Shown here piece after piece: positions 1 through 11,915 of a DNA stretch of 64,000 nt; position 1 is the first letter of the stretch; each line of letters begins with the position of its first letter. The stretch spans positions 1,530,212 to 1,594,211 of the forward strand of contig OZ241875.1 in assembly GCA_965203325.1 (NCBI GenBank). Direction: 5' to 3'. Both the position numbers and the translations under genes were made by a program. This DNA is from a bacterium. Its GTDB lineage: Bacteria; UBA8248. The notes beneath the pieces were generated by a model. That model was given only the letters and a program-made list of their open reading frames with translations, was not told the origin of the DNA and made no database searches.

Positions 1-917
1 TACGCCACGACCTGTTTCGCCACGCTCATGGCTACGTTTTCCTGGGCTTCCGCGGTAGATGCCCCCAGATGCGGCGTGCAGACGACGTCGTCGCGCCCGA
101 TGAGCGGATCGTCCGGGTCGGGGGGTTCCTGTTGGTATACGTCCACCGCCGCGCCTCCGACCTTCCCGCTGTCGAGCGCCTCGGCCAGCGCCACCTCGTT
201 TATCAGCCCCCCGCGCGCGCAGTTGATGATGCGAACGCCGTCGCGCATCTGGGCGATTTCCGCAGCGCCGATCAGGTTCCCCGTCTCCGTGTTCTTCGGC
301 ACGTGCAGGGTGATGTAGTCGGATTTGGCCAGAAGCTCCTCGAAATCCACCGGGTTCACCCCGCGCTGGGAGAGCACTTCGGCGGAGATGTATGGATCGA
401 AGGCGAGGACGTTCATGCCCAGGTTGCGGGCGAACGTCGCCGTCTGCGAACCCACGCGCCCCATGCCCACGACGCCCAGTGTTTTAGAAGATAGCTCGCT
501 GCCCACGAAGCGGTTTCGCTCCCATTTCCCTCCCTTGAGGGAGGAGACGGCCGAGGGAATCTTGCGCGCCAGCGAGAACATCATGGCGATGGTGTGCTCC
601 GCCGTGGTGATGACGTTGCCGTCGGGCGCGTTCACCACCAGAATGCCGCGCATGCTGGCGGCTTCGAGGTCCACGTTGTCCACGCCAATCCCTGCGCGCG
701 CGACCATCTTGAGCGTATCCCCGGCACCCATCAGTTCATCATCCACCTGCGTGCCGCTCCGGACGATGAGCGCGTCGGTTGTCTTCACGGCCTCGAGAAT
801 TTCTTCCCGCGAGGAGGCGGTGCGGTCGAGGACTTCAAAGCCCTGCTGGTCCTCGAGTATCTCGTGCGCCCTCGGCGAGATCGGCTCGGCAATCAGAACT
901 CGAAACGTCTGGTTCAT
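1..917 (-). CDS. serA: D-3-phosphoglycerate dehydrogenase, N-terminal part (gene runs off the window start)
   Basis: Reverse complement of 871-917 translates MNQTFRVLIAEPISP..., a typical SerA / 2-hydroxyacid dehydrogenase N-terminus. The ATG at 917-915 overlaps the downstream stop (ATGA). The plus-strand ORFs in this stretch are antisense artefacts. Confidence 0.75.
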   Translation of the reverse strand, partial: MNQTFRVLIAEPISPRAHEILEDQQGFEVLDRTASSREEILEAVKTTDALIVRSGTQVDDELMGAGDTLKMVARAGIGVDNVDLEAASMRGILVVNAPDGNVITTAEHTIAMMFSLARKIPSAVSSLKGGKWERNRFVGSELSSKTLGVVGMGRVGSQTATFARNLGMNVLAFDPYISAEVLSQRGVNPVDFEELLAKSDYITLHVPKNTETGNLIGAAEIAQMRDGVRIINCARGGLINEVALAEALDSGKVGGAAVDVYQQEPPDPDDPLIGRDDVVCTPHLGASTAEAQENVAMSVAKQVVA

Positions 918-2053
918 TCGTTGAACACCTCTTGCGCTGCGGCGAGGCCGCGCCCTCTATCCAGTGAAAAGCCCAGATCGGCCAGGGTCGATTCCAGCGC
1001 GCCGACCGCCGCCAGCACGTCGGAGGAATCGACATACCCCAGATGCCCGATCCGGAAAATCTTGCCGCTCAGGCCGCCCTGCCCCCCGGCGATGGTCACC
1101 CCGTGCGCATCCTGCATCCTGCCGGGGACGGCTTTTCCGTCGACTCCCTCGGGTACGCAGACGGCGGTGACGGCCTCACTCCTCAAGTCGCGGGGGAATA
1201 TGGCGAGGCCCATCGCTTCAACAGCCGCTCCCGTCGCCCGCGCCAGAAGCGCATGGCGCGCGAAGACGTTCTCCAGCCCCTCCTCGCGCATCATGTCGAG
1301 CGCGACCGACAGGCCCGCCAGAAGGGAGATCGCAGGCGTCCAAGCGGTGGTGTTCTTCATCTGGCTCTTGCGCTCGATCTCGAGGTCGAAATAATACCGG
1401 GGCGAAGTCGATTCCGCGGCGGCGCGCCGGGCCCGCTCGCTCAGCCAGACGAAGGCCAGCCCCGGCGGGAGCATGAGCGCCTTCTGGCTCCCCGTGATCA
1501 CGGCGTCCAGGTCCCATTCATCGGTCTTGAGGTCGTACACGCCCAAGGCGGTGATGGCGTCCACCACCACGAGCGTATCGGGCGACCGCTCTCGCACAAG
1601 CTTCGCAACGGCCTGCACGTCGTGCTTGGACCCAGTGGAGGTTTCGCTCGCCTGCATCAGCAGCGCCTTGTGCCCTCCGCGCTCCAGGCGCGCCTCCAGG
1701 GCACCTAGGTCGACCGAACGGCCCCATTCCACCTCCAGGACGTCCGCCTTTACGCGAAAGGCCTCGCAAAGCTCCGTCCATCGCTCCCCGAATTTGCCGC
1801 CCTCGATGACGAGCGCCGAATCGCCCGGAGAGAGCAGGTTCGCCACCGCCGCCTCCATGCCGCCCGTACCCGAAGCGGCGAGGGTGATGACGTCGCCGCT
1901 CGTCTGGAAGAGCCATTCGAGGCCGCGCCGCGCTCCTTCGAAGTGCGCCTCGAACTCTCTGGTGCGATGGTGGATCAGGGGCCGCGCCATGGCTTCGAGC
2001 ACCCGGTGGGGGACCGGCGTGGGGCCGGGGGCCATGAGGTGGTGCTTGTTCAT
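914..2053 (-). CDS. class V aminotransferase (serine-pyruvate / phosphoserine aminotransferase type)
   Basis: ORF 914..2122 trimmed to the internal Met (MNKHHLMAPGPTPVP...). Shows the class-V AGT-like fold signature (SGTGGMEA, GSQKAL). Stop TGA at 914-916. Sits next to serA. Confidence 0.85.
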   Translation of the reverse strand: MNKHHLMAPGPTPVPHRVLEAMARPLIHHRTREFEAHFEGARRGLEWLFQTSGDVITLAASGTGGMEAAVANLLSPGDSALVIEGGKFGERWTELCEAFRVKADVLEVEWGRSVDLGALEARLERGGHKALLMQASETSTGSKHDVQAVAKLVRERSPDTLVVVDAITALGVYDLKTDEWDLDAVITGSQKALMLPPGLAFVWLSERARRAAAESTSPRYYFDLEIERKSQMKNTTAWTPAISLLAGLSVALDMMREEGLENVFARHALLARATGAAVEAMGLAIFPRDLRSEAVTAVCVPEGVDGKAVPGRMQDAHGVTIAGGQGGLSGKIFRIGHLGYVDSSDVLAAVGALESTLADLGFSLDRGRGLAAAQEVFNE

Positions 2054-2178
2054 TTCTGCTCTTTCCCTGATGTCTGTCGTAGCGGGCGAACACGTGACCA
2101 TACGCCTCAAAGGATATACCACTCCCCGCCAAACCCCTCAAGCGATGTTCATGCCGCCCGTTTTCGTGGGGGTTTGTA

Positions 2179-3688
2179 GGGGCCGCATATATGCGGCCCT
2201 TGCGGGTCGGATCGTCAAGCCGTCGTAAAACCCATCCAGGAATTGCGCCGTTAGACGGGACGGAACTATCAATGGCGAAAACCACTCTGCGCGGGACGAT
2301 GGGATGGACGCCTCCTTCCGGCAGTTTAGAATGTGGCGAGGTAACGTCACACACCGCCCGGAAGGAGACGACCATGGAAGGAGTCTACATCATCGGCATC
2401 GATCTGGCGAAGAACAGTTTTCAACTCCACGGGGCGCGGGCGGACGGTTCGGTCGCGTACCGCAGGAAGCTGACGCGCGCGAAGGTGCTGGGCTTTCTGG
2501 CCTCGCAGCCGCGTTGCGTGGTGGCGATGGAGGCGTGCGCGGGGGCGCACCATTGGGGCCGGGCGCTCGGTCGTCTCGGCCACGAGGTGAAGCTGCTGCC
2601 GCCGGCCTACGTGAAGCCCTACGTGAAGCGCCACAAGAACGACGCGGCGGACGCGGAGGCGATTAGCGAGGCGGCCACTCGCCCGACGATACGTCCGGTG
2701 GCGGTAAAGAGCGAGGAACAGCAGACGCACGGGATGCTGTACCGGGCGCGCGATTTGCTGGTGGGTCACCGGACCCGGACGATCAACGCCTTGCGGAGTC
2801 ATCTGGCGGAGTTCGGGGTCGTCGCGCGTCAGGGGCCCGTTGGCCTCACGAGATTGGTGGTTGCGGTTCGGGGAGCGGAATCGGGTCTGCCCGAGGCGGT
2901 CCGGGAGCTGGGCGAGGTTCTGCTGGAGGAGATCGCCGGCCTGAAGGCGAAGATAGAGGAGTTGGAGAGGCGGCTGTGCGCGAGCGTCCGCGATGACGAG
3001 GAGGCGCAGCGGCTGATGAGCATTCCGGGGGTCGGGCCGATAACGGCGTCGGCGATCCGGGCGTTCGCGCCGCCGATGGAGAACTTCCGTCGGGGCCGGG
3101 ACTTCTCGGCCTGGCTGGGTCTGGTCCCCCGGCAGCACACCACGGGGGGCAAGCCCCGCCTGGGGCGGATATCGAAGATGGGCCAGCGCGACGTGAGGCG
3201 GCTGTTGATCATGTGCGCGATGTCGGTGATTCGCCAGGCCGTTCGGCGCGGCGCGCCGCGGGGTTCGTGGCTGGCCCGGATGCTGGCGCGCAAGCCTCGT
3301 ATGCTCGTCGCGGTGGCGCTGGCCAACAAGATGGCGCGCATCGCGTGGGCGCTGCTGCGGAACAAGGAGTTCTACAGGGAACCGGCGCCCCTCGCCTGAG
3401 CGGCGCGCGGATAGAGTCGGGAGGAATGTGAGCCGGTCGGAGGAAGGGTAAGGGCAAACGGTCATCGAGACGGGATCGGGGCAACCAGGTACATGCGACG
3501 AGCGAACCACCGAGCTCGCCGGGACGATTCGGACCCGATCCGCGCATCTCCATACGGGCCCGCGGCCAGCATGAAGCGCCGCAACGAAGAGGCCGAATGT
3601 ACGACTGAGCCGAACCGCTTTGCGCCGAACCCTCCAAAAAACCGCTTGCATTCCAAGGGGGCGTCCATGTACGCATATATGCGTCCCC
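2179..3688 (+). mobile_element. IS110-family insertion sequence, about 1.5 kb, no terminal inverted repeats
   Basis: A single DEDD-type transposase ORF with long non-coding ends. It is flanked by two related palindromes, GGGGCCGCATATATGCGGCCC (2179-2199) and GTCCATGTACGCATATATGCGTCCCC (3663-3688). The boundaries are approximate. Confidence 0.55.
2374..3399 (+). CDS. IS110 family transposase
   Basis: MEGVYIIGIDLAKNSFQLHG... N-terminal DEDD RuvC-like motif and a C-terminal Transposase_20 region (MSIPGVGPITASAI...GRISKMGQRDVRRLL). RBS GAAGGAGA at 2361-2368. Confidence 0.9.
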   Translation: MEGVYIIGIDLAKNSFQLHGARADGSVAYRRKLTRAKVLGFLASQPRCVVAMEACAGAHHWGRALGRLGHEVKLLPPAYVKPYVKRHKNDAADAEAISEAATRPTIRPVAVKSEEQQTHGMLYRARDLLVGHRTRTINALRSHLAEFGVVARQGPVGLTRLVVAVRGAESGLPEAVRELGEVLLEEIAGLKAKIEELERRLCASVRDDEEAQRLMSIPGVGPITASAIRAFAPPMENFRRGRDFSAWLGLVPRQHTTGGKPRLGRISKMGQRDVRRLLIMCAMSVIRQAVRRGAPRGSWLARMLARKPRMLVAVALANKMARIAWALLRNKEFYREPAPLA

Positions 3689-3763
3689 TACACAATTCGT
3701 ATATACCGAACCAAATAAGCCATAAATGTTAGTTAAAAAGGCACGGCAAAGTGTTCTCCACAC

Positions 3764-3798
3764 ACAAAAAAACCGGGGGGCCGAAGCCCCCCGGTTGT
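3764..3798 (-). terminator. rho-independent terminator downstream of the porin gene
   Basis: Hairpin CCGGGGGGCcgaaGCCCCCCGG followed by a T-run on the minus strand (A-run at 3766-3772 on plus). Confidence 0.6.
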
Positions 3799-3836
3799 CG
3801 TCGCGTCAGGTGAGGACGCGAGCGTCCTTCATGCTG

Positions 3837-5084
3837 CTAGAAGATGTGGCGCAGCGTCCAGCCGACCGCCCAGCCGTCGTCGATCTCCGGGCCATCAACC
3901 GCTCTGCCGTAATCGCCGCGCAGGATAACGGCGCCCACACCGCGAAGCTCGAGGTTCGAGTGGATCTTCCACTTGAAGGCGGCGTTGAGCTCTGTGCCGA
4001 ATTCCTTCGCGTCCATCGTGTTCGGTGCGAGGGAAGGCTCTGCGGAATTGTAGAGGGATACACCGCCGCCCAGCGTCAGGGTCTTGCTGACCTTGAAGTC
4101 GGCCAGCCCCTCGATCACGGTCGCGCCGTTCAAGGCGCCCAGGTGCACGCTTCTGATGCCGTTGCCCAGAGTCGTCCAGCGGCGCGAAGTCATAATGTGG
4201 CCGCCGAAGAACCAGCCGGAACCGCCTTCCTGAGGCGTCCTGAACCGGCCGTCCTCACCGGCCCTGGCACCGTCATTGCCGGAGAGCATCGTGAGGTTGC
4301 CGCTCAGCTTCAGTTTGCCCAGACTCGTGGAAGTCCTCACCAGAACGGCCCAACCCGAGAGCTCATCGCCGGGTTCGCGGGGATCATCGCTCGAGAGGTC
4401 ACCTTCCTGGATGACCATAGAACCGTTCACGTTGAGGATGCCTACCTTGGTCTTGACGTGGATGCCGAGGAAGCTGTAGTCGTAGCCGCCGAGCACCGCG
4501 TCCCTGGAGTTGGCCGCCCACGGTGTAACCGTTAGCGTCGGGTTCACCTTGATGCCCACGCCGACGTAGTAATCCGTCTTGTCGTCGTTTTCGGCGCTGG
4601 TATCTTCCTTCGACTTGGTCATGAACGCGCTGAGCGACATGTTCTTGCTGAGCTTACCGTAGATCGCAATGCCCGGTTCACGGGAACGACCGCTGCTGTC
4701 GTAGATTTCCTTGTCCGGCGAGAAATAGTCCGTCCGGCCCATACGCATGCGGAGCGCGCTGCCCGGAACGGCGAAGTCGATCACCCAGCGGTTGACGCCG
4801 ACAGTCTGCCGGCCGGGACCGATTGAGAAGCCGCCGTTCGCGCTTACGAATTCGGGCTCCCACACGGCCGTGACGGCGCCGCTTTTCGCCGTGAAGCGCG
4901 GGCGGATGAGCGCGTCCAGGTAATTACTCTTGTCATTTACGTCATCGTTTCCGTCTTTGTTGACGTTTTCGCTGGATCCGCGCACTCGGAAGAAGCCGCT
5001 GAACTTGAGGTCGGCCGCGTACGAGGGCGCTACAAACGTCGCCAAGAGCGCCAGCGCAAATAGAGTTAACAGAATTTTCCTCAT
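3837..5084 (-). CDS. outer-membrane beta-barrel porin
   Basis: Signal peptide MRKILLTLFALALLATFVAPSYA. Alternating amphipathic beta-strand pattern. C-terminal ...WTLRHIF ending in Phe. RBS AGGAGAAA 8 nt upstream. Confidence 0.65.
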   Translation of the reverse strand: MRKILLTLFALALLATFVAPSYAADLKFSGFFRVRGSSENVNKDGNDDVNDKSNYLDALIRPRFTAKSGAVTAVWEPEFVSANGGFSIGPGRQTVGVNRWVIDFAVPGSALRMRMGRTDYFSPDKEIYDSSGRSREPGIAIYGKLSKNMSLSAFMTKSKEDTSAENDDKTDYYVGVGIKVNPTLTVTPWAANSRDAVLGGYDYSFLGIHVKTKVGILNVNGSMVIQEGDLSSDDPREPGDELSGWAVLVRTSTSLGKLKLSGNLTMLSGNDGARAGEDGRFRTPQEGGSGWFFGGHIMTSRRWTTLGNGIRSVHLGALNGATVIEGLADFKVSKTLTLGGGVSLYNSAEPSLAPNTMDAKEFGTELNAAFKWKIHSNLELRGVGAVILRGDYGRAVDGPEIDDGWAVGWTLRHIF

Positions 5085-5340
5085 GTGTATTTCTCCTCAT
5101 CGAGGTTTCATAAAAAAATGTTGCCGTCTTCCTTCGTGTTCAACATCTTGATTTTGTCAATGTGTCTGCATTCGTGCTTCGTCGTCTGCAACAGGGCTTC
5201 CCGTTCCCGCATCACCCCCTCTCTTCTCTTCCATGTCGCCCCGTACGTCGACAAGGTTCTAACGAGCGAACCGGTTTTTTGCCGCTTATGTAGACGATTC
5301 CCTGTCTGAGAAAACAATCATTCCATTCCCCGTTTCTCAA

Positions 5341-5370
5341 AGAATAGAGGAAGAAGATTCTTCTTGTCAA
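5341..5370 (-). promoter_or_regulatory. candidate sigma70 promoter for the porin gene
   Basis: On the minus strand TTGACA-N18-TATTCT. The spacer is the near-palindrome AAGAAGA-T-TCTTCTT, a possible operator. Would give a ~250-nt 5'UTR. Confidence 0.25.
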
Positions 5371-5639
5371 CAAACAATCCGAATGGAAACCCGAAAATTA
5401 GCCCCTACTCGATCCGAATCCCGCGCTTGGCCGTGAGACGGAAGAAAGTATTTAATGATTGTAAAATCAGTCCTTTACGAAAATTCTCGTGTCATGAATA
5501 AGCGGCGCGAGATTCCCCGGCCCGTCCGGCTTCCCCAGGTTCAAGAATTTTTTTTCTTTCGCAGGCCATAAATGTCGCGGAAATACGCCTTTCGCCTCTG
5601 GTAATCCGACCAAGCCCCACACCATTGAAGTAGAGGATT

Positions 5640-7568
5640 CTATTCCCTGATCCTGTAGAAAAAGAGTCGGCTCTTCGCTCCGGCGAACAGACCCGAACTC
5701 GCCGCCGCGACAACGAGATCGTCGTAGCCGTCGTTGTCCGCGTCGCCGAAAGCGAAATCCACGACTCCGCTGCTCAGCTTCCTCGTGCGCCAGGTTTCGC
5801 TCAAGCCGCTTCCGTCCCATATAAGACTTGCAAGCTGGCCACCCGAAATCCCCAGGCCGGGAGCAATGGCGGCGCCGTATTCGTTTTTGATCACCAGAAC
5901 CTCGTCCACACCGTCCCCGTCGACGTCATTAAACAGCACGCGCGAGCGGATGGGGAGATCCGGCACATGATCCCCGTCCCCGGTGCTTTCAGTATTGGCC
6001 TGGGAGAAGAATTTATGGACGGGCACGCCATAGGTTTCAGAACTGGAGAATATCTCCGAGCCGCTTCTGGAAAAAACCCTCAGCCTGTCGTCTTTCCCGA
6101 CCTCGATGACTTCCTGCGCGCCGTCCTTGTTGAGGTCCCACAAGCCGAAGCCCAGTATCGTTATATCGGGCGGAAGCGCATAAGGGGCAGCGGGCGTGAG
6201 CTTTCCACCCGACCAGCGGTAGCTGCGGATGGGGCCGTCGAAAGCGCTCTCGATCCCTTCGCTCTGTCCCAGAAGCAGATAGGCTTCCGAATCGGGAATC
6301 TTCTCACCCCTCTTGGGCCGCCGCATCCGTATCAGGCGATAAAAAGTTCTGTCGTTCCGTACTAGGGGCGTGAACTTCCCGCCCTTGAACTGCAAGATTA
6401 TAGAGAACAACTCGTTCGAGCGGTAAGAGGCGAGGTAGAACTCCGGCGCGCCGTCTCCGTTCATGTCGGCGACGTCGAGCCAGCGGAAGTCGTTCGCCGC
6501 CCCCTCGTCGAAGCGTGCGACCTCGCGCATCCGGTTTCCCTCGAAGCGGTTGACGATGACCTGCGTCTGCGTGATGAGCACGACTTCGCTTTTTCCGTCC
6601 CCGTCCACGTCCGCCAGGGACAGCCCCCGGATGGCGACCTTGTCGAACGAGTAGCTTTTTTGGCCGCCTCCTCTATTTGGTACGCCCTCACGTGCGAGCA
6701 CGAAGCTCTCGTTCGCGGGTCCCGCGCGCACACCGTCCCCGCCGCGCCTTAATTCCTGCACCTTGGGCGGGCCCTGCTCGAAGGGCAACTCATCCGCAAT
6801 GGCCACGGCCTTGAAGAGTTCTTCCTTCGTGGTGAGAGATAAAAGACGGGTGGAGAGGATTTTCTTCCCCCGGATTTCGCGGAGTTCGTTCTCGATCGCC
6901 ATGTCGCTCCGCACCTGGTTCCGCAGGCGGATGGGGTTCTGATTTTTAAGAATTTCATCGGTGGCGACACCCGTCTCCAGGAGCCATACCTGGAGCCTGT
7001 CCACGTCGTAGACATCGAAGCGTCCGCTCCTCAGGAGTTGGCGGCTCAGCTCCCTCGTGAGGGTCTCCATGCTGATGGGTTCTTTCGTCTGGTTCACGAA
7101 AGGCAGTATCGCCAGGCGAACCTTCGCGGCGGACATGCGCACCGTGTCCTTGACGCGCGGGGAGAGCCGCCCGCCAGGCGCCAGGCGGACCAGACGCGCG
7201 ATGGAGAATTTCTCCCGCACCTCGACGACCTCGACTTCGCCGATTTCCTCTTCCAGCTTGCCGAGAACGACGCCCGTCGTCGGGTGGCGAAACGGCGCGC
7301 CCTCGCGGTAGACGTTCAGCTTGACGCCCTTCACCACCTCATCCTTCTCTCCGAGGCTCAAGTAAAGATCCGCCCCCCTGACGGCGACCACCGCGCCGCG
7401 CAGGTTCGGGAATCGCTGGTGCAGCTTTTCGCTGATGAGGCCCAGGGCCTTGCGGTAATCATTCTCCTGGGCATGAACCGAACTGCCGGATGCGCAGAGG
7501 AGAATCATGAGCGCCGGCAGGACGAGCGACGCCTTCTTGAGGAGGTGAGAGAACATGAAAAACCCCAT
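5640..7568 (-). CDS. secreted FG-GAP/VCBS-repeat protein
   Basis: Signal peptide. Repeated DVDGDG / DADNDGYDDLVV / DLNKDGAQEV motifs (FG-GAP-like Ca-binding repeats). The N-terminal domain contains LAILPFVNQT (CsgG/LpoB-like). Confidence 0.65.
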   Translation of the reverse strand: MGFFMFSHLLKKASLVLPALMILLCASGSSVHAQENDYRKALGLISEKLHQRFPNLRGAVVAVRGADLYLSLGEKDEVVKGVKLNVYREGAPFRHPTTGVVLGKLEEEIGEVEVVEVREKFSIARLVRLAPGGRLSPRVKDTVRMSAAKVRLAILPFVNQTKEPISMETLTRELSRQLLRSGRFDVYDVDRLQVWLLETGVATDEILKNQNPIRLRNQVRSDMAIENELREIRGKKILSTRLLSLTTKEELFKAVAIADELPFEQGPPKVQELRRGGDGVRAGPANESFVLAREGVPNRGGGQKSYSFDKVAIRGLSLADVDGDGKSEVVLITQTQVIVNRFEGNRMREVARFDEGAANDFRWLDVADMNGDGAPEFYLASYRSNELFSIILQFKGGKFTPLVRNDRTFYRLIRMRRPKRGEKIPDSEAYLLLGQSEGIESAFDGPIRSYRWSGGKLTPAAPYALPPDITILGFGLWDLNKDGAQEVIEVGKDDRLRVFSRSGSEIFSSSETYGVPVHKFFSQANTESTGDGDHVPDLPIRSRVLFNDVDGDGVDEVLVIKNEYGAAIAPGLGISGGQLASLIWDGSGLSETWRTRKLSSGVVDFAFGDADNDGYDDLVVAAASSGLFAGAKSRLFFYRIRE

Positions 7569-7778
7569 ATTGGAAATGCGTTCTTAAGAGACTCCGGCGG
7601 CGCCGTTTCCGCTCCGTGACGGAGGATGGCTCTGGATAATCAATCAGCCGTTATATTATCATGATTTCGAAGACAGAATGCCCCCAACACCCACAAATAT
7701 ACCGCGTAAGAAGCAGAAAGCAAGTTGAATCCGTCCATGCGGAAAGCCGCTCCGACCCAACGCAGGCCGTGTTTCGCC

Positions 7779-9692
7779 TCAAGGCGCGGCGAGGCCCAAC
7801 TCTCTCATCATTTTCGGGTGAAGCGGCGAGCCGAACCTGCCGGCCTCTCTCGCGTGTTTTCGCGCGCCCGTGCGATCGCCTTCCACATAGAGGGCCAGCG
7901 CCAGATTGTGATGGACGCCTCCGTGGCCCGGCTCCAGCCTGAGGGCCGCCCTGAACTGCGCTATCGCCAGCCGCCTCGAACCCGCCTTGAGGTACAGGGT
8001 GCCCAGGTTGAATCGCGCCTCCACCAGCGAGGGTTTGAGGCTTATCGCGCGCTCGAAACGGGGTCTGGCCAGATCGCCGCGACCGGCGCCCATATACAGC
8101 ACTCCCAGGGCCAGGTGCGCCTCGGCGTTCTCATCGTTCAGACGCAGGGCGCGCTGCAAGGAAGTTTCGGCGGCGGCCGGGTCGCCGCTTTGCATCTGCG
8201 CTATCCCCAAATCCACCCAGGCGTAATCGTAGACGGGATAGATCTCGACGGATTTCTCGAGCGGCGCAATGGCTTCGCGGAACCTGTTCCGGTCGATCAG
8301 GGCCTGCCCGTACACCCGGAGCGCGCGCGCGCTTTTGGGCGATACCTCCGCCATTCGCCGCCAGAAACGAAGCGCATCGCCCCACTCGTGGTTTCGCTTT
8401 ATCGTCAGCGCCCCGAAGGTCAGGCATGCGACTACGAGCAGCGCCGCGCCGACCCGCCAGTCCCTTTGGTTGAGCCAGACGCCCGCTGTGGGAACGAGGG
8501 CGATCAGGAAGCCGGCCGAGGGGATATACAGCACCCGCTCCGCCATGATGGTGCCCATGGGGATTAGCAGGTTGCTCACGGGCAGATACGCGCCGATGAA
8601 AACGACGAGCCCGAAGGCGATCCACGGCATGTCTTTCCTCAGGCGCCAGGAGGCGTACCCCCACGCCAGAGAGCCCAGTGTCCCAGCCAGCATCCAAAGC
8701 GCGGCCTCAGTCCCCTCCACAGGAATCTGCGCGAAGGAATAATCCATGCTCAAAGGCCACGGCCAGACCAGTAACTTGAAATAGCGGCCCAGTACGCCGA
8801 CCGCGCCCAGGATACGTTCGCCGGCCGGCATCAGCGCCAGGACGTTGTCGAGTTTCGACGGGGGATAGGGGCGCGCCAGCATGCCCAGTGCGGCGTATCG
8901 CATCCACACGTAGACGATGAGCACGAGGACGAGCGCGCAGACGGCGGTGAGCGTGTGCTTGAGAGGCGGGCGCTCGGTCTTTCCCAATACACAGCGGCTC
9001 CAGAGCCACCATAAAAGGGCGCTGAACAGCAGGGCGACGCCGATTTCCTTGGACAAAAGCGCAAAAAGGCAAAGCGCGCATGTGAGGCCGACGGGCGTGA
9101 GCACTCCTCGATAAGAGAGGCCTCCTTCGCCTCCCCTCTCGTGGATCCCCTCCGCAACGCCTGGTTTCGTCCCCGGAAGCGCGACGCCCACCAGGAGGCC
9201 CAATCCCCCGAACACGCCGGCGGCGGCCATCAGGTCGGCGCGCGCGACGACGGCGTTCACCGCCTCGGTATGCACCGGATGAAGGGCGAACAGCAGGGCG
9301 CCAGCTCCCGCCGCGCCGCGCGAAAGCCCGAAACGCATGCACAGCCAGAACAGCGCGAGCGAGGCGAGGGCATGAAACAAGGCGTTGGCGATTCTGTAAC
9401 CCAAAGGGTTCAGGCCGCCCGCGGCGTGGTTCAGCGCAAAAGAGACGATGGTGAGGGGCCGGTAGAGGCGGTCTCTTCTCTCGTTCGTCTCTATCACGGC
9501 CCAGTAGTCGCGCTGAAAGGCTTCCAGAATGCGGCCGCTCTCGCGAACCAGGGGATTCTCGCCGATGATGGCGATGTCGTCGTGCAGAAACGGGTTCGTA
9601 AACGCGCCCGCGAAGATGAAAAACGCGGCGCCGGCGATGGCGCAGGCCCAACCCCATTTCACGAGCGACCCCATTCGTCCTGTCTCATCCAT
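7779..9692 (-). CDS. multipass membrane protein with C-terminal TPR repeats (TMTC/PMT-like glycosyltransferase family)
   Basis: N-terminus HDDIAIIGENPLV and more than 10 TM helices. Four to five C-terminal TPR units (AEAHLALGVLYMGAG...). Start chosen at ATG 9692; the ORF track's 9719 is TTG. Confidence 0.65.
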   Translation of the reverse strand: MDETGRMGSLVKWGWACAIAGAAFFIFAGAFTNPFLHDDIAIIGENPLVRESGRILEAFQRDYWAVIETNERRDRLYRPLTIVSFALNHAAGGLNPLGYRIANALFHALASLALFWLCMRFGLSRGAAGAGALLFALHPVHTEAVNAVVARADLMAAAGVFGGLGLLVGVALPGTKPGVAEGIHERGGEGGLSYRGVLTPVGLTCALCLFALLSKEIGVALLFSALLWWLWSRCVLGKTERPPLKHTLTAVCALVLVLIVYVWMRYAALGMLARPYPPSKLDNVLALMPAGERILGAVGVLGRYFKLLVWPWPLSMDYSFAQIPVEGTEAALWMLAGTLGSLAWGYASWRLRKDMPWIAFGLVVFIGAYLPVSNLLIPMGTIMAERVLYIPSAGFLIALVPTAGVWLNQRDWRVGAALLVVACLTFGALTIKRNHEWGDALRFWRRMAEVSPKSARALRVYGQALIDRNRFREAIAPLEKSVEIYPVYDYAWVDLGIAQMQSGDPAAAETSLQRALRLNDENAEAHLALGVLYMGAGRGDLARPRFERAISLKPSLVEARFNLGTLYLKAGSRRLAIAQFRAALRLEPGHGGVHHNLALALYVEGDRTGARKHAREAGRFGSPLHPKMMRELGLAAP

Positions 9693-9895
9693 CGCCCGAA
9701 CTGCCGAGCGTTTCTCCAATGCGCCGTCAACCGCCTGAAAAAGAACGGTATCCGCATGAAAAGACTCCCGATGTCACGGCCCGGCCCCAGTAATTTCAAA
9801 AACATCCGAATCATTGAGCCGCCATCATGACAACAAAACTTCCGCCCCGCCACCGGAAACCTCGATAAAATCGCCCTCCTCGTCCGCTTTTCCTT

Positions 9896-9924
9896 TTGAC
9901 TCCCGGCGTAACGACTGATAGTCT
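9896..9924 (+). promoter_or_regulatory. candidate promoter of the thiC leader
   Basis: TTGACT-N17-TAGTCT immediately upstream of the riboswitch. The same hexamer pair recurs at 32992-33020. Confidence 0.3.

Positions 9925-11915
<1,991 letters not shown>

What the first reader, a model, noticed from the sequence alone, without database searches (positions are those of the whole stretch)
2179..3688. IS110-family element flanked by GCATATATGC palindromes, with long non-coding ends that could encode a bridge RNA
The transposase gene (2374..3399) is preceded by ~195 nt and followed by ~290 nt of non-coding sequence. The segment is bounded by two related palindromes, GGGGCCGCATATATGCGGCCC on the left and ACGCATATATGCGT within GTCCATGTACGCATATATGCGTCCCC on the right. 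IS110/IS1111 elements lack terminal inverted repeats and insert into specific, often palindromic (REP-like), targets. Recent work shows they use a structured bridge RNA encoded in a non-coding end to select target and donor. The long ends here are candidates for such an RNA. The flanking palindromes may be the split target or the donor core, with ATAT/AT as the central dinucleotide.
Basis: partly seen in the sequence, partly recalled or inferred. Interest (0 to 1): 0.5.

Follow-up and report, generated by a model that had tools for sequence, protein, structure and literature searches.

The report
IS1111-type insertion sequence in a REP palindrome
This is an ordinary, intact RNA-guided insertion sequence (IS110 family, IS1111 subgroup) that encodes its bridge/seek RNA downstream of the transposase gene. 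It has inserted into one arm of a repetitive palindrome, so it is a new member of a well-described kind and not a new mechanism.

Summary

- **Boundaries.** Comparison with 80 related loci puts the IS at 2299..3671 (1373 bp). It is flanked on each side by the same core dinucleotide, CG (2297-2298 and 3672-3673).
- **Subgroup features.** It has subterminal inverted repeats (2304-2317 / 3655-3668), a 75-nt 5' end and a 272-nt 3' non-coding end. This is the IS1111-subgroup layout.
- **Bridge RNA.** The 3' end encodes a conserved structured RNA (~3425-3653; 96% of pair cells paired, 17 pairs with compensatory changes). It has two internal loops. Their variable strands track each relative's own flanks and own right end (permutation tests, 0 of 5,000-10,000 shuffles).
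- **Target.** Removing the IS and one CG restores the perfect palindrome GGGACGCATATATGCGTCCC followed by CTACA. This is a REP-like repeat found intact in at least 120 metagenome contigs.
- **The two palindromes.** The left palindrome (2175-2199) is a second, intact, inverted REP copy about 100 bp outside the IS. The right palindrome is the split target.
- **Core.** The crossover dinucleotide is CG, not AT.

Verdict: new member of a known kind, low to moderate interest.

The parts
2175..2199 (+). REP-A: an intact REP-like repeat (TGTAG + 20-bp perfect palindrome GGGCCGCATATATGCGGCCC). It is not part of the IS. It is the inverted partner of the disrupted REP-B.
   Evidence: (I1, I23). The same 25-mer family, GGGNCGCATATATGCGNCCCCTACA, is intact in at least 120 metagenome contigs.
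2200..2291 (.). Spacer between the two REP copies. This is host DNA, not IS.
   Evidence: No similarity to the corresponding stretch in L001-L004 or any other relative. In 92 of 125 metagenome REP copies an inverted GTAGGG partner lies within 250 nt upstream, so doublets are usual.
2292..2298 (+). Left target flank plus core, CGGGA+CG (core CG at 2297-2298). GGGACG is the left arm of the disrupted palindrome REP-B.
   Evidence: Identical to the bridge-RNA left target guide at 3520-3526. The core at the left equals the core at the right.
2299..3671 (+). The insertion sequence proper (1373 bp, not counting the duplicated CG core).
   Evidence: Family-wide end definition from 40+ relatives: element lengths 1350-1399 bp, left end ATGG(G/A)(G/A/T)TGGA(C/T)GCC, right end GGC(G/A)TCCA(C/T)NNA. 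Collapsed-repeat contigs of 1277-1408 bp carry only the element. There is one copy in the window.
2304..2317 (+). Left subterminal inverted repeat (sTIR-L), ATGGACGCCTCCTT, 5 nt inside the left end.
   Evidence: I6 (14 nt, 93% complementary to 3655-3668). Conserved across relatives.
2305..2332 (+). Sigma-70-like promoter candidate inside the left end (-35 TGGACG, 16-nt spacer, -10 TAGAAT).
   Evidence: 1 site found against 0.3 expected. A consensus match only; function is inferred.
2304..2375 (+). 5'-UTR hairpin. The arm 2304-2321 (sTIR-L) pairs with 2358-2375 (Shine-Dalgarno GGAAGGAG plus the first two bases, AU, of the start codon).
   Evidence: I4 (18 nt, 89% complementary). The same long-range pairing appears in the minimum-free-energy (MFE) fold of 25 of 26 relatives, with GGACGCC/GGCGUCC versus GGAUGCC/GGCAUCC covariation.
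2374..3399 (+). Transposase/recombinase gene, 341 aa. DEDD RuvC-like N-terminal domain and C-terminal Tnp domain with the motif GL-P----TG.
   Evidence: Pfam PF01548 and PF02371. NCBIfam NF033542. Motifs GIDLA (residue 8), AMEA (51), KNDAADA (88) and GLVPRQHTTGG (249). About 42% identity over 98% of the length to IS5075/IS4321 transposases. Distant matches to the ISCro4 and IS621 structures.
3425..3653 (+). Bridge (seek) RNA gene, delimited by the closing helix H1 (3425-3431 with 3646-3653). Inner helices: H2 3460-3464/3612-3616; H3 3473-3480/3534-3541; H5 3500-3503/3514-3517; H6 3557-3560/3591-3594; H7 3562-3566/3578-3582.
   Evidence: Alignment A1 of 31 relatives. RNAalifold consensus. Named-structure count: 96.0% of cells paired against 23-40% when partners are slid by 1-3 columns, and 17 pairs with changes on both sides; 0 of 500 shuffles reached the observed value on any measure. 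Window coordinates.
3488..3497 (+). Right target guide (5' strand of the target-binding loop), GGUACAUGCG. It is antisense to core plus right flank, CGCATATATG (3672-3681): 7 Watson-Crick pairs, 1 G-T wobble and 2 mismatches here.
   Evidence: Family-wide, own-flank match averages 7.39 of 10 against 4.26 for other elements' flanks; 0 of 5000 permutations reach the observed total.
3520..3526 (+). Left target guide (3' strand of the target-binding loop), CGGGA+CG. It has the same sense as 2292-2298. The following AU (3527-3528) equals the first two bases of the left end, which is handshake-guide-like.
   Evidence: Own flank 4.64 of 7 against 2.09 for others' flanks; 0 of 5000 permutations. The core in this guide equals the left core in 27 of 28 relatives. 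The next two bases are AT in 24 of 31.
3548..3553 (+). Putative right donor guide (5' strand of the donor-binding loop), CUCCAU. It is antisense to the first bases of the left end, ATGG(G/A)(G/A).
   Evidence: Conserved CCAT in all 31 relatives; pairing read by eye. Both partners are nearly invariant, so there is no real covariation test. Inferred.
3597..3603 (+). Left donor guide (3' strand of the donor-binding loop), AUGUA+CG. It has the same sense as the right-end terminus plus core, 3667-3673.
   Evidence: Exact 7 of 7 match in 24 of 28 relatives although the heptamer differs between lineages (ATGTACG, ATATACG, ATAGACG, ACAGATG, ACACACG, ATACATG...). Cross-pairs that match 7 of 7: 0. Permutations reaching the observed total: 0 of 10000.
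3655..3668 (+). Right subterminal inverted repeat (sTIR-R), AAGGGGGCGTCCAT, 3 nt inside the right end.
   Evidence: I6.
3672..3692 (+). Core CG (3672-3673) plus the right target flank, CATATATGCGTCCCCTACA.
   Evidence: Joining 2294-2298 to 3674-3692 gives GGGACGCATATATGCGTCCCCTACA, which occurs intact in many metagenome contigs, for example L081, L083, L084.

Best explanation
An intact IS110-family insertion sequence of the IS1111 subgroup occupies 2299..3671.

**Components**
- It encodes a 341-aa DEDD recombinase.
- Downstream of that gene it encodes a ~230-nt bridge RNA (also called seekRNA) with two internal loops.
- The target-binding loop carries GGUACAUGCG, antisense to core plus right flank, and CGGGACG, the same sense as left flank plus core.
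- The donor-binding loop carries AUGUACG, a copy of the right-end terminus plus core, and a conserved CUCCAU opposite the left end.

**Inferred mechanism** (by analogy with IS621, ISEc11 and ISPa11)
1. The element excises as a circle that joins ...GGCGTCCATGTA-CG-ATGGGATGGACGCC...
2. The recombinase-RNA complex pairs one loop with this junction and the other with a target of the form CGGGA-CG-CAT(G/A)TA.
3. Strands are exchanged at the CG core.

**What happened here**
The target was the left arm of a REP-like palindrome, GGGACGCATATATGCGTCCC-CTACA. This repeat is the second, inverted member of a REP doublet; its intact partner is the palindrome at 2175-2199.

**Shown:** family membership, boundaries, the core, the sTIRs, the conserved RNA structure, and guide-flank and guide-end covariation.
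**Inferred:** transcription of the RNA, its binding to the recombinase, circle formation and current activity.
For: **Protein**
- Pfam PF01548 and PF02371.
- NCBIfam NF033542, 326.9 bits against a cut-off of 140.
- About 42% full-length identity to IS5075/IS4321.
- GL-P----TG motif and DEDD-region motifs present.

**Boundaries**
- Conservation with L001-L004 and more distant relatives starts at ATGGGATGGACGCC and stops at ...GTCCATGTA.
- Regex-defined ends give elements of 1350-1399 bp; the flanking dinucleotides are identical in 25 of 28.
- Several 1.28-1.41-kb contigs consist of the element alone.

**RNA**
- 31-sequence alignment and RNAalifold helices.
- 35 named pairs are 96% paired, with 17 compensatory pairs. 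No shuffle and no slid control comes close.

**Guides**
- The left donor guide equals the right-end terminus plus core in 24 of 28 relatives despite lineage-specific sequences.
- The right and left target guides match each element's own flanks far better than other elements' flanks; 0 of 5000 permutations.
- The order of guides (strand complementary to the top strand lies 5' of the strand complementary to the bottom strand, with matches overlapping at the core) is the one reported for IS1111-type seekRNAs (PMC11187229, section 9).

**Cross-check on a characterised element**
The same layout in IS5075 (L201) yields a 5' loop strand antisense to ...TTCCGTTTT and a 3' strand TATTTTC. Both match the sequences that flank this IS5075 copy in L201, and its GGATAGATTC is a copy of its right end, CCATAGATTC. 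From my own knowledge, that flanking site is the Tn21-family terminal inverted repeat known to be targeted by IS5075/IS4321.

**Target**
The reconstructed empty site is a perfect 20-bp palindrome, identical to a repeat found intact in at least 120 metagenome contigs with 71 distinct left flanks.
Against: - No empty orthologous site and no second copy from the source genome could be retrieved, so the boundaries rest on relatives of 85% amino-acid identity or less.
- No Rfam family matched the 3' end.
- The window RNA alone does not fold better than shuffled sequence (z = +0.95), so the structure rests on covariation only.
- The right target guide has 2 mismatches and a wobble against this particular flank. 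This is a slightly off-optimum target.
- The right donor guide assignment has no covariation support.
- The dinucleotide after the core in the donor loop (AC) does not match the right flank (CA) in this element, although the family shows a weak handshake-like signal: 24 of 62 positions match against 17 expected, and 66 of 10000 shuffles reach that.
- There is no expression, circle-junction or activity data.
Confidence: 0.9

Rival explanations
1. The element spans 2179-3688 and is bounded by the two GCATATATGC palindromes. It has a ~195-nt 5' end that might carry the bridge RNA, and AT or ATAT as the crossover core.
For: The two palindromes are real, related and non-random. Together they form a 21-nt inverted repeat around the transposase gene.
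Against: - 2200-2296 has no counterpart in any of the 80 relatives, while everything from 2299 onward is conserved.
- Two copies in one genome (L003 and L004) differ completely upstream of the position equivalent to 2290.
- The dinucleotide shared by both junctions is CG here, and CG, TG, AG or CA in relatives, never AT.
- The bridge-RNA guides match 2292-2298 and 3672-3681, not the left palindrome.
- Element-only contigs are about 1.37 kb, not 1.51 kb.
Confidence: 0.03
2. The boundaries and family are as in the best explanation, but this copy is an immobile fossil. It looks intact yet is no longer expressed or able to excise, and its RNA no longer functions.
For: - Only one copy lies in 64 kb, and no identical protein is on record.
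- The right target guide mismatches its own flank at two positions.
- The start-codon arm of the 5'-UTR hairpin (GGAGACGACCAT) is more diverged from the sTIR sequence than in most relatives.
Against: - The ORF is full length with all motifs.
- Both sTIRs, both core copies, all RNA helices and the left target and left donor guides are intact and match perfectly.
- Nothing in the sequence indicates decay.
Confidence: 0.12
3. The 21-nt inverted repeat (2175-2195 / 3672-3692) marks a larger mobile unit, a REP doublet (REPIN-like, moved by a RAYT transposase) or a MITE, which carries the IS as a passenger.
For: - The two REP copies are inverted, differ at 2 of 25 positions, and have the 5' GTAG + palindrome form typical of REPs.
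- Doublets are the usual arrangement of this repeat elsewhere: 92 of 125.
Against: - This reading describes the target, not the IS. The IS has its own ends, core and guides.
- No RAYT gene was looked for or seen.
- The ~97-nt spacer is not conserved between loci.
- None of the 120 REP-bearing contigs carries a transposase homologue.
Confidence: 0.04

Closest known systems
IS1111-subgroup elements of the IS110 family with a 3' seekRNA/bridge RNA, for example ISPa11 (REP-targeting), ISEc11 and ISKpn4 (Siddiquee et al. 2024, PMC11187229; Durrant et al. 2024, PMC11208160)
   Same: - DEDD recombinase of 330-350 aa with the GL-P----S/TG motif.
- Subterminal inverted repeats a few bases inside each end.
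- Short 5' end and long 3' non-coding end that encodes a structured RNA.
- The 5' guide strand is complementary to the top strand of the target and the 3' guide strand to the bottom strand, overlapping at a short core.
- Insertion into a REP-type palindrome, as for ISPa11.
- No target-site duplication beyond the core.
   Different: - Different guide sequences and a different target (CGGGA-CG-CAT(G/A)TA in a GTAGGGG...CCCCTAC REP).
- The best relative found is 85% identical at the protein level, in an unnamed MAG.
- I could not query ISfinder, so I cannot say whether a named isoform exists.
[quoted passage not shown]
   Same: - About 42% amino-acid identity over 98% of the protein.
- Homologous ends: GATGGTCACTCCC / GGGAGTGACCAT against GATGGGATGGACGCC / GGGGGCGTCCAT.
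- The same position of the right-end copy (left donor guide) about 70 nt before the right end.
- The same target-loop layout.
   Different: - The target is a transposon end, not a REP.
- Different core.
- Enterobacterial plasmid context.
IS621 (IS110 subgroup; the structurally characterised bridge recombinase, PDB 8wt6)
   Same: - The same two-loop logic: left and right target guides, left and right donor guides, a 2-nt core, and a handshake-like dinucleotide after the left target guide.
- It also targets REPs.
- The C-terminal domain is detectably homologous (E 3.5e-12).
   Different: - In IS621 the bridge RNA lies in the long 5' end and the order of guide strands is reversed (PMC11187229 abstract).
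- IS621 has only 2-3-bp sTIRs.
- The N-terminal domain similarity is below phmmer significance here.

Membership tests
IS110 family (DEDD transposases) | [quoted passage not shown] | tested here: met
   PF01548 E 3.8e-15 (residues 7-146) and PF02371 E 1.3e-24 (residues 211-288). NF033542 equivalog, 326.9 bits against a cut-off of 140.
IS110 family (DEDD transposases) | Catalytic DEDD residues and the conserved Ser/Thr-Gly of the C-terminal domain | tested here: inconclusive
   The motifs GIDLA (D10), AMEA (E53), KNDAADA (D90, D93) and GLVPRQHTTGG (T257-G258) are present by string search. Their equivalence to the IS621 catalytic residues was not checked by structural alignment.
IS110 family (DEDD transposases) | No terminal inverted repeats, and no target duplication other than a short shared core | tested here: met
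   The same dinucleotide lies at both junctions (CG here); this holds in 25 of 28 relatives.
IS1111 subgroup | Subterminal inverted repeats of 7-17 bp, a few bases inside the ends | tested here: met
   2304-2317 / 3655-3668: 14 nt, 93% complementary, with a 9-nt perfect core ATGGACGCC/GGCGTCCAT (I6). They lie 5 nt and 3 nt from the ends and are conserved family-wide. Definition from PMC11208160 section 12.
IS1111 subgroup | The longer non-coding region lies downstream of the transposase gene | tested here: met
   5' end 75 nt (2299-2373); 3' end 272 nt (3400-3671). Criterion from PMC11187229 section 6.
IS1111 subgroup | Transposase of 330-350 aa, related over its full length to IS1111-type transposases, with the GL-P----S(t)G motif | tested here: met
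   341 aa. GLVPRQHTTG fits GL-P----TG. About 42% identity over 98% of the length to IS5075/IS4321.
Bridge RNA / seekRNA | A conserved structured RNA in the long non-coding end | tested here: met
   7 helices, 96% paired, 17 pairs with compensatory change, controls far lower.
Bridge RNA / seekRNA | A target-binding loop whose two strands match opposite strands of the target on either side of the core | tested here: met
   right and left target guides covary with each element's own flanks (0 of 5000 permutations). In the window, 3520-3526 equals 2292-2298, and 3488-3497 is antisense to 3672-3681 (7 Watson-Crick pairs and 1 wobble of 10).
Bridge RNA / seekRNA | A donor-binding loop that matches the element's own joined ends | tested here: inconclusive
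   The left donor guide is met strongly: 24 of 28 exact 7-mers, 0 of 10000 permutations. The right donor guide (CUCCAU against ATGGRG) is compatible but nearly invariant, so there is no covariation test.
Bridge RNA / seekRNA | The RNA is transcribed, binds the recombinase and is required for recombination | not testable with these tools
   Needs RNA-seq or co-purification and transposition assays.
Bridge RNA / seekRNA | A match to a curated RNA family model | tested here: not met
   Rfam 15 scan of 1900-4000 at E up to 10 returned only weak terminator-like sRNA hits near 3770-3870. I do not know whether Rfam holds any IS1111 bridge-RNA model.
REP / REP doublet (the target, not the IS) | 5' GTAG followed by an imperfect palindrome; many dispersed copies, often as inverted pairs | tested here: inconclusive
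   The form is met: GTAG + GGGCCGCATATATGCGGCCC. Copies: only this pair in the 64-kb window, but at least 125 copies with 71 distinct flanks in metagenome contigs, 92 of them with an inverted partner within 250 nt. Association with a RAYT gene was not tested.

The most novel reading that the evidence does not exclude
The window element itself shows nothing beyond the known mechanism. The most novel reading left open comes from its relatives. The DNA that encodes the donor guide and the right end seems to act as a recombination substrate in its own right.
- One relative (L022) carries at least 17 perfect tandem copies of the last 131 nt (the donor-loop half of the RNA plus the right end).
- L003 carries a 70-nt duplication, spaced between its donor-guide copy and its right-end terminus.
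- One lineage (L015/L025) has guides programmed against the subterminal repeat of a sister IS and is nested in it twice.

If these are real, IS1111-type elements would generate satellite-like arrays and IS-in-IS targeting through self-directed or sibling-directed bridge recombination. The window copy, whose donor-guide DNA (3597-3604) repeats its own circle junction for 8 nt, would be capable of the same.
Probability: 0.15. Interest if true: 0.5.

Novelty: new member of a known kind. Interest (0 to 1): 0.25.

Why it matters
- **Annotation.** The result gives exact ends, core, sTIRs, guide segments and target for one IS1111-type element, and an end-and-guide map for about 30 relatives. The true ends would have been set 120 bp off using the flanking palindromes, because a second REP copy mimics a terminal repeat. 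Misplaced ends are a known problem for IS110-family entries (PMC11187229, section 13).
- **Engineering.** It adds one more natural bridge-RNA/recombinase pair with readable target and donor codes: target CGGGA-CG-CAT(G/A)TA, donor ATGTA-CG-ATGGG.
- **Biology.** It is another case of an RNA-guided IS using a widely distributed REP palindrome as a safe harbour.

None of this changes current understanding.

Tried and rejected
- **Exact-protein look-ups.** Both the 341-aa and the 402-aa ORF products found nothing, so no second copy from the source organism was available.
- **The longer ORF from 2191 (402 aa).** Rejected, because relatives are conserved only from the ATG at 2374 and the upstream part is unrelated host sequence.
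- **Rfam scan.** No relevant family.
- **Single-sequence folding of the 3' end.** No signal, z = +0.95. Only comparative analysis revealed the structure.
- **RNAalifold on the 5' end.** It missed the long-range hairpin because of indels in the alignment. Per-sequence folding recovered it.
- **Other copies of the palindrome in the window.** Searches for the full palindrome, for GTAGGGG...CCCCTAC and for TGTAGGGG found only the two known sites.
- **Empty site.** BLAST of the window flanks and of the reconstructed empty site against the 120 REP-bearing metagenome loci matched only the palindrome itself, so no orthologous empty site was found.
- **Scripting errors, corrected.** A first regex for the left end was wrong (fixed). 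A first left-target-guide score was misaligned (fixed).
- **Bridge RNA in the 5' end.** Considered and rejected. That end is only 75 nt, has no variable loop, and is fully used by the promoter-like site and the SD-sequestering hairpin.
- **Circle-junction promoter.** Considered and left as speculation: TTGCAT 3646-3651, 18 nt, then TACGAT formed only across the junction. TTGCAT is also the 3' arm of RNA helix H1, and nothing here tests promoter function.
Full report
**1. Observation**

GGGGCCGCATATATGCGGCCC lies at 2179-2199 and GTCCATGTACGCATATATGCGTCCCC at 3663-3688. An ORF at 2374..3399 encodes 341 aa.

The shared 12-mer CGCATATATGCG occurs only at these two places in 64 kb, against 0.11 expected. 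The similarity extends to a 21-nt inverted repeat, 2175-2195 / 3672-3692.

The ORF is an IS110-family transposase. It matches Pfam PF01548 and PF02371 and NCBIfam NF033542, 'IS110 family RNA-guided transposase', at 326.9 bits against a cut-off of 140.

**2. Where the element really ends**

A scan of one genome per species returned 80 loci that encode relatives with 54-85% amino-acid identity. The source genome itself is not among them, and the exact protein is not on record.

*Right end.* Aligning the downstream regions shows about 270 nt of conserved non-coding sequence. It ends abruptly at ...GGGGGCGTCCAT(G/A)TACG, after which the flanks diverge.

*Left end.* Aligning the upstream regions shows conservation beginning only at ...(C/T)G-ATGG(G/A)(G/A)TGGACGCC, about 75 nt before the start codon. 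The stretch equivalent to window 2200-2296 is unrelated in every relative. This includes L003 and L004, two copies from the same chromosome.

*Family-wide check.* I defined ends by the conserved motifs ATGGrnTGGAyGCC (left) and GGCrTCCAy+3 nt (right). This gives elements of 1350-1399 bp. The dinucleotide just outside the left end equals the one just outside the right end in 25 of 28 relatives, and it is CG, TG, AG or CA. Several contigs of 1277-1408 bp consist of the element alone, as expected for a collapsed repeat.

*In the window.* The IS is 2299..3671 (1373 bp), with the CG core at 2297-2298 and 3672-3673. There is a single copy in the window.

**3. Subgroup**

ATGGACGCCTCCTT (2304-2317) and AAGGGGGCGTCCAT (3655-3668) are inverted repeats lying 5 nt and 3 nt inside the ends (I6). 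They are conserved across the family.

Three features define the IS1111 subgroup (PMC11208160 section 12; PMC11187229 section 6), and all are present:
- subterminal inverted repeats;
- a short 5' end with a long 3' end (75 nt against 272 nt here);
- a 330-350-aa transposase carrying GL-P----S/TG. Here the protein is 341 aa and the motif is GLVPRQHTTG at residues 249-258.

The protein is about 42% identical over 98% of its length to the IS5075 and IS4321 transposases. It is only distantly related to the solved IS621 and ISCro4 proteins.

**4. The RNA**

An alignment of 31 non-redundant 3' ends (A1) gives an RNAalifold consensus with several covarying helices. I added one long-range helix found by a column scan and counted the resulting 35-pair structure:
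- 96.0% of cells are paired, against 23-40% when partners are slid by 1-3 columns;
- 17 pairs show changes on both sides;
- no shuffle out of 500 reaches any observed measure.

In window coordinates, a closing helix H1 (3425-3431 / 3646-3653) and helix H2 (3460-3464 / 3612-3616) enclose two arms.
- **Arm 1.** Stem 3473-3480 / 3534-3541 with an apical stem 3500-3503 / 3514-3517. Between them lies a large internal loop: 3487-3499 on the 5' side and 3518-3530 on the 3' side.
- **Arm 2.** Stems 3557-3560 / 3591-3594 and 3562-3566 / 3578-3582, flanked by the single-stranded segments 3542-3556 and 3595-3611.

The window sequence alone does not fold better than shuffles (z = +0.95), and Rfam has no matching family. 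The case for the structure is therefore purely comparative, but it is strong.

**5. Guides**

The loop strands are the variable parts of the RNA, and they track each element's own DNA.

(a) *Left donor guide.* The 3' strand of arm 2 contains a 7-mer identical to the last 5 nt of the right end plus the core. In the window this is AUGUACG at 3597-3603, matching 3667-3673. The match is exact in 24 of 28 relatives although the heptamer differs between lineages. No cross-pair matches 7 of 7, and 0 of 10000 permutations reach the observed total.

(b) *Left target guide.* The 3' strand of arm 1 ends in a copy of the 5-6 nt left flank plus core. In the window this is CGGGACG at 3520-3526, matching 2292-2298. 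Own flanks score 4.64 of 7 against 2.09 for other elements' flanks (0 of 5000 permutations).

(c) *Right target guide.* The 5' strand of arm 1 is the reverse complement of core plus right flank. In the window, GGUACAUGCG at 3488-3497 faces CGCATATATG at 3672-3681, giving 7 Watson-Crick pairs, one G-T wobble and two mismatches. The closest relatives, L001 and L002, sit next to CGCATGTAT and match for 8 contiguous bases. Own flanks score 7.39 of 10 against 4.26 (0 of 5000 permutations).

(d) *Right donor guide.* The 5' strand of arm 2 carries an invariant CCAU within CUCCAU (3548-3553). This can pair with the first bases of the left end, ATGG(G/A)(G/A). Both partners are nearly invariant, so the assignment is inferred only.

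Arm 1 is therefore the target-binding loop and arm 2 the donor-binding loop. The order of strands, with the top-strand-complementary segment 5' of the bottom-strand-complementary one and the two matches overlapping in the target, is the one reported for IS1111-type seekRNAs (PMC11187229 section 9).

Two handshake-like signals appear. The two bases after the core in the left-target-guide strand are AU in 24 of 31 relatives, equal to the first two bases of the left end; this resembles the handshake guides described for IS621. The corresponding dinucleotide in the donor loop matches the right flank somewhat more often than chance (24 of 62 positions against 17 expected; 66 of 10000 shuffles reach this), but not in the window element.

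As an external check, I read IS5075 (L201) with the same map. Its arm-1 5' strand, GUAAAACGGAAA, is antisense to ...TTCCGTTTT, and its 3' strand, UAUUUUC, matches the left flank. Both correspond to the sequences that flank this copy in L201. From my own knowledge, that site is the Tn21-family terminal repeat known to be targeted by IS5075. Its GGAUAGAUUC copies its right end, CCATAGATTC.

**6. The target and the two palindromes**

Joining the left flank through the core to the right flank gives ...CTCTGCGC-GGGACGCATATATGCGTCCC-CTACA. The middle is a perfect 20-bp palindrome. This reconstructed 25-mer occurs intact in many metagenome contigs.

The pattern GGGNCGCATATATGCGNCCCCTACA hit at least 120 stretches before the scan stopped. 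The 125 matches have 71 distinct left flanks, the loci range from 31% to 71% GC, and 92 matches have an inverted GTAGGG partner within 250 nt upstream.

It is an intact REP-like copy that differs from the disrupted one by a compensated C/A-G/T pair. The form of these repeats, a 5' GTAG followed by a palindrome and often arranged in inverted pairs, is that of REP elements; this comparison rests on my own knowledge of REP/REPIN literature. No RAYT gene was sought.

Its first A (3671) is the last base of the IS, CG is the core, and the rest is REP.

The relatives L001-L004 are likewise inserted in the left arm of GTAGGGG...CCCCTAC hairpins, with a second copy 45-150 nt upstream. REP targeting by IS110-family elements is well documented, for example for IS621, ISPpu9 and ISPa11 (PMC11208160 sections 5 and 9; PMC12288879 abstract; PMC11187229 section 13).

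**7. The 5' end**

The 75-nt left end contains one sigma-70-like site: -35 TGGACG at 2305-2310 and -10 TAGAAT at 2327-2332.

It also contains a long-range hairpin in which sTIR-L (2304-2321) pairs with the Shine-Dalgarno sequence and start codon (2358-2375) (I4). The same pairing is the minimum-free-energy fold in 25 of 26 relatives, with GGACGCC/GGCGUCC versus GGAUGCC/GGCAUCC covariation.

My inference is as follows. Transcripts that read in from outside include the 5' arm and are translationally silent. Transcripts from the internal promoter start downstream of that arm and are translated. This is a common device in insertion sequences and has not been tested here.

**8. Mechanism**

*Shown:* family and subgroup membership, the ends, the core, the sTIRs, a conserved structured RNA, and guide covariation with both flanks and with the right end.

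*Inferred, by analogy with IS621, ISEc11 and ISPa11:*
1. The element excises as a circle with the junction ...GTCCATGTA-CG-ATGGGATGG...
2. The donor loop binds this junction.
3. The target loop binds CGGGA-CG-CAT(G/A)TA.
4. A recombinase tetramer exchanges strands at CG.

The copy looks intact, but I cannot tell whether it is active.

**9. Rivals**

- A fossil copy cannot be excluded (0.12).
- A larger REP-doublet unit carrying the IS is unlikely, and it would describe the target and not the IS (0.04).

**10. Novelty and score**

All the defining features tested were met for the IS1111 subgroup, and the mechanism is the published one. The closest protein found is 85% identical, in an unnamed MAG. 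This is a new member of a known kind. Interest is 0.25.

The useful outcomes are a corrected annotation and a demonstration that a neighbouring REP copy can masquerade as a terminal repeat.

Side observations in relatives may deserve a separate look. These are tandem arrays of the right-end/donor-loop module and nested insertions guided into a sister IS.

Noticed in passing
L022:3669-6002 (OZ243958.1, Alphaproteobacteria MAG chromosome): The last 131 nt of a related IS (the donor-loop half of the bridge RNA, sTIR-R and the right-end terminus) is repeated head-to-tail at least 17 times at 100% identity. Two units are 161 nt. The array runs to the end of the stored locus. It could be a real recombinase-driven amplification or a long-read assembly artefact.
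   Followed up: partly
L003:3729-3868 (OZ244799.1): A tandem duplication of about 70 nt of the right end (sTIR-R-like sites at 3787 and 3857). Its boundaries are the two ATATACG sites: the donor-guide-coding copy inside the RNA gene and the right-end terminus. This looks like recombination between the end and its internal look-alike. The sister copy L004 lacks it. L030 has a similar 10-nt duplication, CGTCCACACA x2.
   Followed up: partly
L015:2181-2440 and L025:2181-2440 (same MAG, CBDBLP01): Two independent nested insertions. One IS lineage (right end ...CCACATA-CG) sits inside the right subterminal repeat of a sister IS lineage, at the target ...CACCGGGGG-CG-TCCATAGACG. Its own guides (left target guide ACGGAGGCG; right target guide antisense to GTCCATAGA) match that site, so this is an IS programmed against another IS's end.
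   Followed up: partly
window 2304-2375: sTIR-L pairs with the Shine-Dalgarno sequence and start codon of the transposase gene. The hairpin is conserved, with covariation, in 25 of 26 relatives. A promoter-like site (2305-2332) would start transcripts downstream of the 5' arm. It is probably a guard against read-through expression.
   Followed up: partly
L081-L200 (metagenome contigs); window 2175-2199 and 3674-3692: The 25-mer GGGNCGCATATATGCGNCCCCTACA is found intact in at least 120 metagenome contigs, many labelled human gut. There are 71 different left flanks, and locus GC ranges from 31% to 71%. This is an unusually wide spread for a REP-type repeat. The host organisms and any associated RAYT gene were not examined.
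   Followed up: partly
window 3646-3651 plus the predicted circle junction: The conserved TTGCAT is the 3' arm of RNA helix H1. In a circle it would also lie 18 nt upstream of a TACGAT hexamer that forms only across the right-end/core/left-end junction. This is a possible junction promoter, as described for some IS110-family elements (PMC12288879 abstract). Speculative.
   Followed up: no
window 3771-3796 (minus strand): A strong intrinsic-terminator hairpin, AACCGGGGGGCTTCGGCCCCCCGGTT followed by a T run, lies just downstream of the minus-strand ORF 3837..5084. That ORF has only a weak SlpA beta-barrel hit. The terminator accounts for the weak Rfam sRNA hits there. The IS and the REP doublet lie between this terminator and the divergent class-V aminotransferase gene (914..2053/2122, minus strand).
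   Followed up: no
window 5100-5550: GC content drops to about 46% against about 63% in the surroundings. This is an intergenic region upstream of the porin-like gene. Not examined.
   Followed up: no
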